Source: the human T2T-CHM13v2.0 reference genome, Homo sapiens. Taken from it: DNA of 64,000 nucleotides. Below are positions 58,769 through 61,660 of the stretch, in pieces (the stretch's first letter is position 1; each line of letters starts with the position of its first letter). Below the pieces are notes generated by a model, which was given only the letters and a program-made list of their open reading frames with translations, did no database searches and was not told the DNA's origin. The translations under genes and the position numbers were made by a program. The stretch is taken from NCBI RefSeq assembly GCF_009914755.1, contig NC_060935.1. One strand, given 5' to 3'.

Positions 58769-58833
58769 GTAGGAATGAATTGATAGCCAGATACATCAAA
58801 CTCAGGACAGGCAAGACGAGGACCAGAAAACAG
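58769..58833 (+). CDS. TEAD1: TEAD1 coding exon (about exon 4, 65 nt), TEA domain: (G)RNELIARYIKLRTGKTRTRKQ
   Basis: Acceptor ttcttctttctttcag, donor CAG|gtaaaa; translation matches the TEA-domain motif GRNELIARYIKLRTGKTRTRKQ; phase 1 start, phase 0 end. Confidence 0.97.
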
Positions 58834-59818: not shown

Positions 59819-61140
59819 CAAAGAGAAGTGGCCTCCTGCCAGCACGCAGAGGCAGCGCATTGTCTGTTTGGGGGATGCTAGTGGCCCTCGTCAAGTCAGA
59901 GAATCACAGAAGAACAAAATTCGGGTGAAAACAAGTAACAGCAGGAGCCAGATGGAGGGCTGAAGAGGATGGGGGAGTTTCTGCTTCTCTGTACTTAAGA
60001 AAAGTACCAAAGCAAATTGGAAAAAAAAATAATTGAATAATTGAAGCTCAAAGACAAAGTTAAAGATAAAAGGACCGTTTATTATAAATCCTGTTTTAGA
60101 GCCGCTGGAGAGTTGGAAATGGGGTAATCACCACACAGTCTGAGTCGCTGAACTTTTAAATGGAAAGTTCTACATTTCGGAAACCAGTGGATCTAATCAT
60201 CTACATTCTGACAGTGCGGGACCTGGGCTGTCTGCTGGTCTGTGAGCTCTGGTCATTTGCCCGGTGACCCCTTCACTGAGGGACTCTTCTAAATTTAACC
60301 AAGTCCCACTGAAAGAGATGCAGATTTCAGTGGAATCATTGTGTTTCAGAAGCTGGGCTCGGCTACATTTCCACGCCCCGGCATCCTGGGGATGTTTTTA
60401 GGCAGCAGTTGGTGATACCTCTCCAATGTGAATTTGTTGTTCAGCAAATCCATGTGGTTTTCAACCCAGATTTTTAACAGGATGGCTGGCTGGCTGTATT
60501 CACACATTTCGCTTTGTAATAATATGCAAATCCACTTGGCGCCCAGTCAATACCCAAAAGAGTGGAAGGATTAAAGATTTTTATAAGGGCAAAAAAAAAA
60601 AAAAATAGCTCTGCTAACTGGGTCTTTCCATTTCTCTTTGAGATCTAATTTACATGTCAGTATTATTTTAACGTTTGCTACAGAATCCAGAGCTCTTAAT
60701 GAGATCAGAATACAACCAACAGCTTCAGCTTTTTGATTCTGCAGAATGTGCTAATTTATGGATAGTCTCTTCTAAATTGAGAAAAAGGGATTTTCCCTCC
60801 TGATACTGAGAAGCTATAAATATTTTCATTTACCTTTACTCCCACCTTTTTAATTTTAGAATGAAAACAGCCCCTCTCATCCCTCCCAAAATTAGTTTTT
60901 CCCAGTGCCCATGATTTCTCTTGGGTGGGAAGACTAAGATGAGTCTTAACTTTCATCCTGAATCAAGTCACTGCAGTGATGACCCAGTATGAAAAGCTTA
61001 GAGCAGCGCTGGGGGCTTGTGTCTGGCTGGGACTGTGTATTCCTAACTGCAGAGCTTTGTTGAGATGCAAATAACCACCCCCCAACCCCACCCCAAAACC
61101 CTCCCAAAGAGTAGCGATTTTATATTTGATTTCCTTTTTT

Positions 61141-61184
61141 GTTTTGTTTTGTTTTGTTTTGTTTTGTTTTGTTTTGTTTTGTTT
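61141..61184. repeat. (GTTTT)8 microsatellite upstream of exon 5a
   Basis: Seen directly. Confidence 0.95.
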
Positions 61185-61209
61185 CCCCTCATAAACCCGA
61201 ACAATGTAG

Positions 61210-61272
61210 GTGTCTAGTCATATACAGGTCTTAGCAAGAAAGAAAGTTCGAGAAATTCAAGCCGCCATTAAG
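61210..61272 (+). CDS. TEAD1: Alternative duplicated TEA helix-3 exon ('5a', 63 nt): VSSHIQVLARKKVREIQAAIK
   Basis: tgtag|GTG acceptor, AAG|gtacgt donor; same length and phase as the canonical exon; first 10 codons differ from it only at synonymous positions. Confidence 0.85.
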
Positions 61273-61361
61273 GTACGTCTGGCTTGCCCACTTGTAGGGG
61301 GCTTTTCATCTCCATGGTTACAGGCTTTTCCTTTGTTTTCCTCCCTTCCCCTACCCTGCAG

Positions 61362-61424
61362 GTGTCTAGTCACATTCAGGTTCTTGCCAGAAGGAAATCT
61401 CGTGATTTTCATTCCAAGCTAAAG
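61362..61424 (+). CDS. TEAD1: Canonical TEAD1 helix-3 exon ('5b', 63 nt): VSSHIQVLARRKSRDFHSKLK
   Basis: Strong pyrimidine tract plus ctgcag acceptor, AAG|gtatgc donor; RRKSRDFHSKLK distinguishes TEAD1 from TEAD2-4. Confidence 0.97.
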
Positions 61425-61605
61425 GTATGCGCTTTTCTGCTTTTTGGCTTGTGGTTGCTATGCATCTCACTTCCTGTTTTCCATGGTGACTGGTGAATGC
61501 CTGGTGCTGGGATTCTCGTAACCTAGTTTCCTTGCATGTGAGAGCTGTTTACATTTCTTTGTGTTTAATCTCTCTGTTTCTGTACTAGCCTCACATTAAA
61601 CTCAA

Positions 61606-61660
61606 TGTGTGTGAGCGCGTGTGTGTGTTTGCGTGTGTGTGTGCGTGTGTATGTGTGTGT
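61606..61660. repeat. Imperfect (TG)n/(CG) repeat downstream of exon 5b
   Basis: Seen directly. Confidence 0.9.

What the first reader, a model, noticed from the sequence alone, without database searches (positions are those of the whole stretch)
61237..61272. Exon swap would delete the RRKS102 kinase site and remodel the basic end of helix 3
Seen: canonical R-R-K-S-R-D-F-H-S-K-L becomes R-K-K-V-R-E-I-Q-A-A-I. Knowledge: RRxS is the PKA consensus. By my count from the gene model this serine is TEAD1 Ser102, which I recall is reported as a PKA site that lowers MCAT binding. The basic cluster is also part of the TEA-domain nuclear localisation region. Inference: the 5a isoform would be insensitive to PKA at this position, and may differ in DNA affinity, tandem-site cooperativity or partner binding.
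Basis: partly seen in the sequence, partly recalled or inferred. Interest (0 to 1): 0.75.

Follow-up and report, generated by a model that had tools for sequence, protein, structure and literature searches.

The report
Hidden alternative DNA-binding exon in TEAD1
The human TEAD1 gene holds an ancient second copy of the exon for the end of its DNA-reading helix, absent from the reference gene model; using it instead of the usual copy removes a kinase target motif, which would likely free that form from cAMP control at this spot, although the same exon pair is already catalogued in the sister gene TEAD3.

Summary
61210-61272 (5a) is a 63-nt, AG/GT-flanked, same-phase duplicate of TEAD1 exon 5 (5b, 61362-61424); it puts Val at residue 102, so RRKS is lost. 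The exon is ancient: human TEAD3 has the same pair (18/21 aa, synonymous sites saturated), and lamprey and amphioxus models have it too. The swap form is annotated from elephant shark to gerbil. Three corrections apply. (1) 5a is also annotated together with 5b (mouse Tead1-FL and many species), which moves the serine to 123 instead of deleting it. (2) The NLS keeps 4 of 4 basic residues. (3) Tandem-site cooperativity is ascribed to loop L1, outside this exon. The TEAD3 event is catalogued; TEAD1 is not in that table. I found no direct evidence of a human 5a protein, and Ser102 as the PKA site is recalled (primary paper not held). Verdict: a new member of a known kind with a testable, untested PKA consequence.

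The parts
61210..61272 (+). Exon 5a: unannotated in RefSeq RS_2025_08, 63 nt, phase 0/0, residues 90-110 of TEA helix 3 in the alternative form
   Evidence: orthologue of human TEAD3's first copy; same 21 residues in 44 of 56 tandem-pair proteins of the first search
61237..61272 (+). The finding: codons 99-110 of 5a, holding all 8 amino-acid differences from 5b
61246..61248 (+). Val102 codon of 5a (replaces Ser102)
61273..61361 (+). 89-nt intron between 5a and 5b, conserved to fish; branch-point-like adenosines at 61308 and 61320, 36 and 48 nt from the 5a donor; retention shifts the frame and stops inside 5b in human
   Evidence: branch-point use is inferred
61362..61424 (+). Exon 5b: RefSeq exon 5 of NM_021961.6, 63 nt
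   Evidence: hub annotation
61389..61400 (+). RRKS motif (R99-S102) of 5b, the PKA-type consensus
   Evidence: PKA use of this residue is recalled
61115..61209 (+). 5a acceptor region: AG-free from 61115 to 61207, U-rich tract with TTTTG x9 (61137-61181) set back from the AG; likely a weak, regulated 3' splice site
   Evidence: weakness is inferred
58769..58833 (+). TEAD1 exon 4 (upstream exon: helix 2, start of helix 3, N-terminal RK of the bipartite NLS)
   Evidence: hub annotation

Best explanation
61210-61272 is a conserved tandem duplicate of TEAD1 exon 5 that likely acts as an alternative exon in human cells, replacing the distal half of TEA helix 3 with a TEAD3-like version that has Val at 102 and so would not be phosphorylated there by PKA. 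Shown: exon anatomy, residue changes, orthology to the TEAD3 pair, purifying selection, gene models in other vertebrates. Inferred: 5b is the default because 5a has a weak acceptor. When 5a is chosen it is joined to exon 6 (swap; motif deleted), or to 5b (motif moved to Ser123, six helical turns past the DNA-facing position in the predicted model), or the short intron is retained (frameshift, likely decay). In both coding forms residues 100-109 are 5a-type. Sequence specificity is likely little changed (residues 90-99 identical) and nuclear import kept. The main predicted difference is loss of a phospho-switch and a modest change in affinity.
For: Exon anatomy and numbering. TEAD1-5a against TEAD3-5a: 16 synonymous and 4 non-synonymous differences, pS 1.08, pN 0.08. 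TEAD3 pair catalogued as substitution event 210. Swap models in gerbil (cluster of 352 sequences), gecko, elephant shark and teleosts, and one protein from an unnamed contig with spliced junctions, P0129. First copy never has Ser at 102 (0 of 107 tandem pairs among 338 fetched proteins); second copy has Ser in 93 of 107. Mouse 63-nt 'exon 4' with matching residue numbers S123/M147/A148, included or skipped in known transcripts. [quoted passage not shown] AlphaFold2 keeps helix 3 continuous in both forms; the 5a+5b model matches TEAD4-DNA 5gzb best.
Against: No human transcript or peptide of 5a was retrieved; RefSeq omits it. TEAD1 was not found in the supplements of four mutually-exclusive/tandem-exon papers (only files held as text). 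The HCMV event has no coordinates in the files searched (12 of 17) and could be intron retention. Of 6 TEAD1-type 5a proteins from unnamed contig sources read into the intron, 1 was a swap and 0 were 5a+5b. Most supporting isoforms are automatic gene models. Ser102 as the PKA site is recalled, and a review says the context of TEAD phosphorylation still needs work. The swap model has low confidence overall (mean pLDDT 59; 79-92 in the blocks over helix 3).
Confidence: 0.62

Rival explanations
1. In mammals 5a is mainly a cassette included in front of 5b, so the product is a 21-residue helix extension that keeps RRKS at 120-123 and gains a second basic cluster; PKA control would be altered, not removed.
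For: Mouse Tead1-FL (ENSMUST00000059768) has both exons; its FLAG-tagged protein is stable and nuclear, while the form without that exon was partly cytoplasmic in some cells. 56 of 120 proteins, 46 and 12 TEAD1-like of 120 are 5a+5b.
Against: The mouse plasmids were synthesised from the annotation. Branch-point candidates lie only 36-48 nt from the 5a donor, a spacing that by established splicing knowledge hinders joining. Double models also exist for TEAD3 (42 of 120), whose human event is catalogued as a substitution. Clustering at 90% identity may favour long forms as representatives.
Confidence: 0.2
2. In human, 5a mostly feeds an unproductive route: exon 4 splices to 5a, the 89-nt intron is retained, the frame shifts and the message is likely degraded, so 5a tunes TEAD1 dosage rather than making a distinct protein.
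For: Human retention reading stops inside 5b. Spliced-upstream, intron-retaining proteins were found (P0002, P0054, P0061, P0068, P0128). The intron is conserved to fish (22/29 in a read-through comparison). The HCMV paper calls its event an 'intronic region'.
Against: The intron is 90 nt and open in frame in 50 of 120 relatives, so decay is not a conserved outcome. The 5a peptide is nearly invariant from lamprey to human with saturated synonymous sites against TEAD3, which needs selection on protein.
Confidence: 0.1
3. The swap matters through DNA affinity, partner contacts or import (K100 and the IQAAI segment), and the loss of Ser102 is incidental.
For: Seven other residues change. 5a creates K-K-x-R, matching the refined NLS consensus quoted, which 5b lacks. 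Second copies carry Ala at 102 in 14 of 107 pairs, including lamprey, amphioxus and shark TEAD3, so the pair is older than the serine.
Against: No binding data obtained. Ser is kept in 93 of 107 second copies, so it is under selection once gained.
Confidence: 0.25

Closest known systems
Human TEAD3 tandem duplicated exon substitution, event 210 (PMC8373072 supplement; ENST00000338863 / ENST00000639578)
   Same: Same position in helix 3, same order, 63 nt each, first copy Val102 and second copy RRKS; 18/21 aa between first copies.
   Different: TEAD1's RefSeq model uses the second copy; TEAD3's main form uses the first (recalled; the table lists both). Intron 89 against 189 nt. TEAD1 is absent from that table.
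Mouse Tead1 'exon 4' of ENSMUST00000059768 (bioRxiv 10.64898/2026.04.17.719138)
   Same: 63-nt exon at the same distance before exon 5; residue numbers fit 5a+5b+microexon exactly.
   Different: Treated there as a skipped cassette in a both-exon transcript; the passages read do not mention duplication, a swap or PKA.
TEAD1 exon 6 microexon (12 nt; RBFOX2-regulated, PMC9410899; also called exon 5 or 5B)
   Same: Alternative splicing directly after helix 3; the authors speculate that phosphorylation could differ by isoform.
   Different: A different exon, about 14 kb downstream. The 'exon 5B' of PMC10325915 (by primer position) and the EMT event of PMC3158048 (by coordinates) are this microexon, not 5a.
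Human TEF-1beta / TEF-1gamma cDNA isoforms (Jiang et al. 2000, recalled)
   Same: Recalled as substitutions or insertions just after the DNA-binding domain with altered binding; one may be the 5a form.
   Different: Not seen: only one citing paper was listed (not opened). Identity with 5a is unverified.
TEAD4 and Drosophila Scalloped TEA domains
   Same: Naturally lack Ser at 102 (Ala, Leu) and share REIQA with 5a.
   Different: TEAD4 and TEAD2 have one copy only in the 9.9-kb regions scanned; no switch.

Membership tests
Tandem duplicated exon substitution (homologous mutually exclusive exons) | Adjacent homologous exons of equal length and phase with canonical splice sites | tested here: met
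   63 nt each, AG/GT, 13/21 aa
Tandem duplicated exon substitution (homologous mutually exclusive exons) | Each copy can be the only one in a transcript | tested here: met
   5a-only 44 and 5b-only 12 TEAD1-like proteins of 120; non-human gene models, not human transcripts
Tandem duplicated exon substitution (homologous mutually exclusive exons) | Copies are not included together (strict exclusion) | tested here: inconclusive
   5a+5b models are common and annotated in mouse; 0 of 6 unnamed-contig TEAD1-type proteins show it; read counts not available
Tandem duplicated exon substitution (homologous mutually exclusive exons) | Deep conservation under protein-level selection | tested here: met
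   pS 1.08 / pN 0.08 against TEAD3; pairs in lamprey and amphioxus models
Tandem duplicated exon substitution (homologous mutually exclusive exons) | Human transcript and peptide evidence for the alternative copy | not testable with these tools
   No human read or proteome data; only an indirect mention
Steric-interference mutually exclusive exons | Branch point of the second exon under about 50 nt from the first exon's donor | tested here: inconclusive
   Candidates at 36 and 48 nt; branch point not mapped; threshold recalled
Docking-site/selector RNA-structure exclusion | Stable competing RNA pairings around the exons | tested here: not met
   61180-61480 folds no better than shuffles, z -0.22; long-range pairs not examined
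PKA substrate site | R-R/K-x-S/T motif | tested here: met
   Present in 5b, absent in 5a
PKA substrate site | Ser102 is phosphorylated by PKA with loss of DNA binding | not testable with these tools
   Primary paper not held; title and review support PKA action without naming the residue
TEA-domain bipartite NLS (Scalloped type) | RK, ten residues, then at least 3 basic of 5 | tested here: met
   Both copies have 4 of 5 (definition)

The most novel reading that the evidence does not exclude
A chordate-old splice switch in the TEA recognition helix toggles PKA sensitivity of TEAD1 and TEAD3 with opposite defaults, and a sizeable, tissue-regulated share of human TEAD1 is the unannotated PKA-blind 5a form, shaping how cAMP signalling meets Hippo/YAP output in heart, muscle and fibroblasts.
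Probability: 0.25. Interest if true: 0.68.

Novelty: new member of a known kind. Interest (0 to 1): 0.42.

Why it matters
TEAD1 is the main DNA-binding partner of YAP/TAZ and matters in heart development and cancer. A coding exon missing from the human RefSeq model means variants there are scored as intronic, and cDNAs and RNA-seq counts miss an isoform of the DNA-binding domain. If the 5a form is expressed and PKA-blind, it offers a simple test of how cAMP acts directly on TEAD, and the same logic covers TEAD3. The limits: the exon pair is already catalogued for TEAD3 and annotated for Tead1 in mouse and other vertebrates, and three family members already lack this serine.

Tried and rejected
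Local RNA structure as the exclusion mechanism: no signal. TEAD1 and TEAD3 inter-exon introns: no convincing alignment. 5a remnants in TEAD2 and TEAD4: none in about 9.9 kb from exon 4 (next best 30 and 29 of 63 nt, the background level). Published 'TEAD1 exon 5/5B' events: PMC10325915 and PMC3158048 concern the 12-nt microexon; the SRSF1 'exon 5' mentioned in PMC9410899 could not be assigned. Loss of the NLS: rejected. The first protein search gave 0 swap forms of 120, which I first read as 'cassette only'; a search with a swap query gave 44 of 120, so both counts reflect the query and clustering, not abundance. Papers not held: the PKA paper, the TEA NMR paper (33), the TM7SF3 paper (40), a TIBS review (74). 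PMC5867882 and PMC4004540 passages had nothing on this exon. Complex prediction was not used: it takes no DNA and no binding claim depends on it.

Full report
Observation. The window holds two 63-nt copies of the exon for TEA residues 90-110: 61210-61272 (5a) and 61362-61424 (5b, the RefSeq exon), 89 nt apart. They match at 44/63 nt and 13/21 aa. Counting 202 coding nt of exon 3 (locus L008, from the ATT start) and 65 nt of exon 4 makes exon codon 13 residue 102: Ser in 5b, Val in 5a. Among 618 AG..GT-bounded 63-mers in the window and two downstream loci, nothing else exceeds 5/21 identity to 5b.

Is 5a a working exon? Human TEAD3 has the same pair in the same order, with a 189-nt intron; TEAD2 and TEAD4 have one copy in the roughly 9.9 kb scanned. 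TEAD1-5a and TEAD3-5a share 18/21 aa but only 43/63 nt: 16 synonymous against 4 non-synonymous differences (pS 1.08, pN 0.08). Among 56 tandem-pair proteins of the first search (120 listed of 259 hits), 44 have the human 5a peptide unchanged, and two lamprey models differ by one residue. Three amphioxus models also have a tandem pair whose copies end like 5a and 5b. That suggests a chordate origin, older than the 'Vertebrata' given for the TEAD3 event; an independent duplication is not excluded.

Swap or co-inclusion? Both are annotated. With a query of 5a plus intron, 56 of 120 listed proteins were 5a+5b and none was a swap. With exon 4 plus 5a against short proteins (120 listed of 576), 10 were TEAD1-type: 4 double (all from genome annotation), 5 reading into the intron and 1 swap (these six from unnamed contigs). 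With that swap protein as query (120 listed of 490), 44 were TEAD1-like 5a-only (gerbil cluster of 352 sequences, gecko, elephant shark, teleosts), 12 double, 12 5b-only, 1 intron-containing; the other 51 were TEAD3-type, amphioxus or unassigned. These are cluster representatives, mostly automatic models, biased by the query; they show which forms exist, not how abundant they are. A mouse preprint (passages and section 17 read) uses ENSMUST00000059768, whose 63-nt 'exon 4' and residue numbers S123, M147, A148 fit 5a+5b+microexon exactly; skipping of that exon occurs in known transcripts, and synthetic full-length protein was nuclear while the skipped form was partly cytoplasmic in some cells. 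[quoted passage not shown]

Splicing mechanism (inferred). The 5a acceptor has a 93-nt AG-free zone with its U-rich tract set back from the AG, the look of a weak, regulated site, so 5b would be the default. Branch-point-like adenosines for 5b lie 36 and 48 nt from the 5a donor, close enough to hinder 5a-5b joining by the steric rule known from other exon pairs (recalled). That would explain swaps and retention, but exclusion is leaky if the double models are real. The intron is conserved (22/29 against a cichlid read-through) and is 90 nt in 50 of 120 relatives; in human it is 89 nt, so retention stops inside 5b. No local RNA structure stands out.

Protein consequence. In both forms position 102 is Val; the double form keeps RRKS at 120-123, 21 residues further along. 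The motif R[RK]x[ST] is in the second copy only, in TEAD1 and TEAD3 alike. Of 107 tandem pairs among all 338 fetched proteins, no first copy has Ser at 102; second copies have Ser in 93 and Ala in 14. TEAD4 has Ala and Scalloped Leu, so the serine looks like a gain in 5b. PKA phosphorylation of TEF-1 is reported to repress DNA binding but enhance gene activation (title in a reference list; review passage); that the site is Ser102 is recalled only. The Scalloped NLS depends on four C-terminal basic residues (passages); 5a keeps all four and gains a K-K-x-R match, so import should be intact or better. Cooperative binding to tandem sites is ascribed to loop L1 (review passage), outside this exon.

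What is known. The TEAD3 event is listed as tandem duplicated exon substitution 210, with no proteomics entry (supplement rows of PMC8373072); TEAD1 has no row there. It was not found in the text-held supplements of PMC9741552, PMC5740500 and PMC7954323 either (the last lists the TEAD3 gene id, the first two list neither gene, so they are weak tests). Ten full-text searches listed no paper linking this exon to PKA; I read listings and opened 14 papers by passage, section or supplement, none in full. The library lacks most subscription papers, and I recall that human TEF-1beta/gamma isoforms altered in this region were cloned in 2000; I could not check them. The well-studied TEAD1 splicing event is the separate 12-nt microexon.

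Verdict. A real, ancient alternative exon missing from the human RefSeq model; a new member of a known kind whose twin in TEAD3 is catalogued. Interest 0.42.

Noticed in passing
window 61137-61181: A TTTTG x9 microsatellite forms the pyrimidine tract of the 5a acceptor; length variants between people could change 5a use.
   Followed up: no
window 61425-61465: The intron start after 5b is conserved to fish (up to 12/13 in read-through comparison) and has 3 YGCY (MBNL-type) motifs in 60 nt, a density reached by 3.8% of 60-nt bins in the window; a TGCATG (RBFOX-type) lies at 61533.
   Followed up: partly
window 61273-61361: The inter-exon intron is 90 nt and stop-free in many fish and one viper model, so retention there would insert 30 residues in frame; in human it is 89 nt and frameshifts.
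   Followed up: partly
P0259, P0321, P0322 (Branchiostoma models): Amphioxus has the tandem pair too, suggesting that the duplication predates vertebrates.
   Followed up: partly
L019 (G000:C6), TEAD3 exon pair: TEAD3's first copy also has a displaced pyrimidine tract before its AG, and 42 of 120 proteins (mostly named TEF-5/TEAD3) include both copies, although the human event is catalogued as a substitution.
   Followed up: no
window 61366-61660: The RefSeq 'silencer' element overlaps exon 5b and a TG-repeat stretch; its relation to the conserved splicing region was not examined.
   Followed up: no
L023:2415-2426 (outside the window): The 12-nt microexon 6; different papers call it exon 5, 5B or 6, which confuses searches for 5a.
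   Followed up: yes
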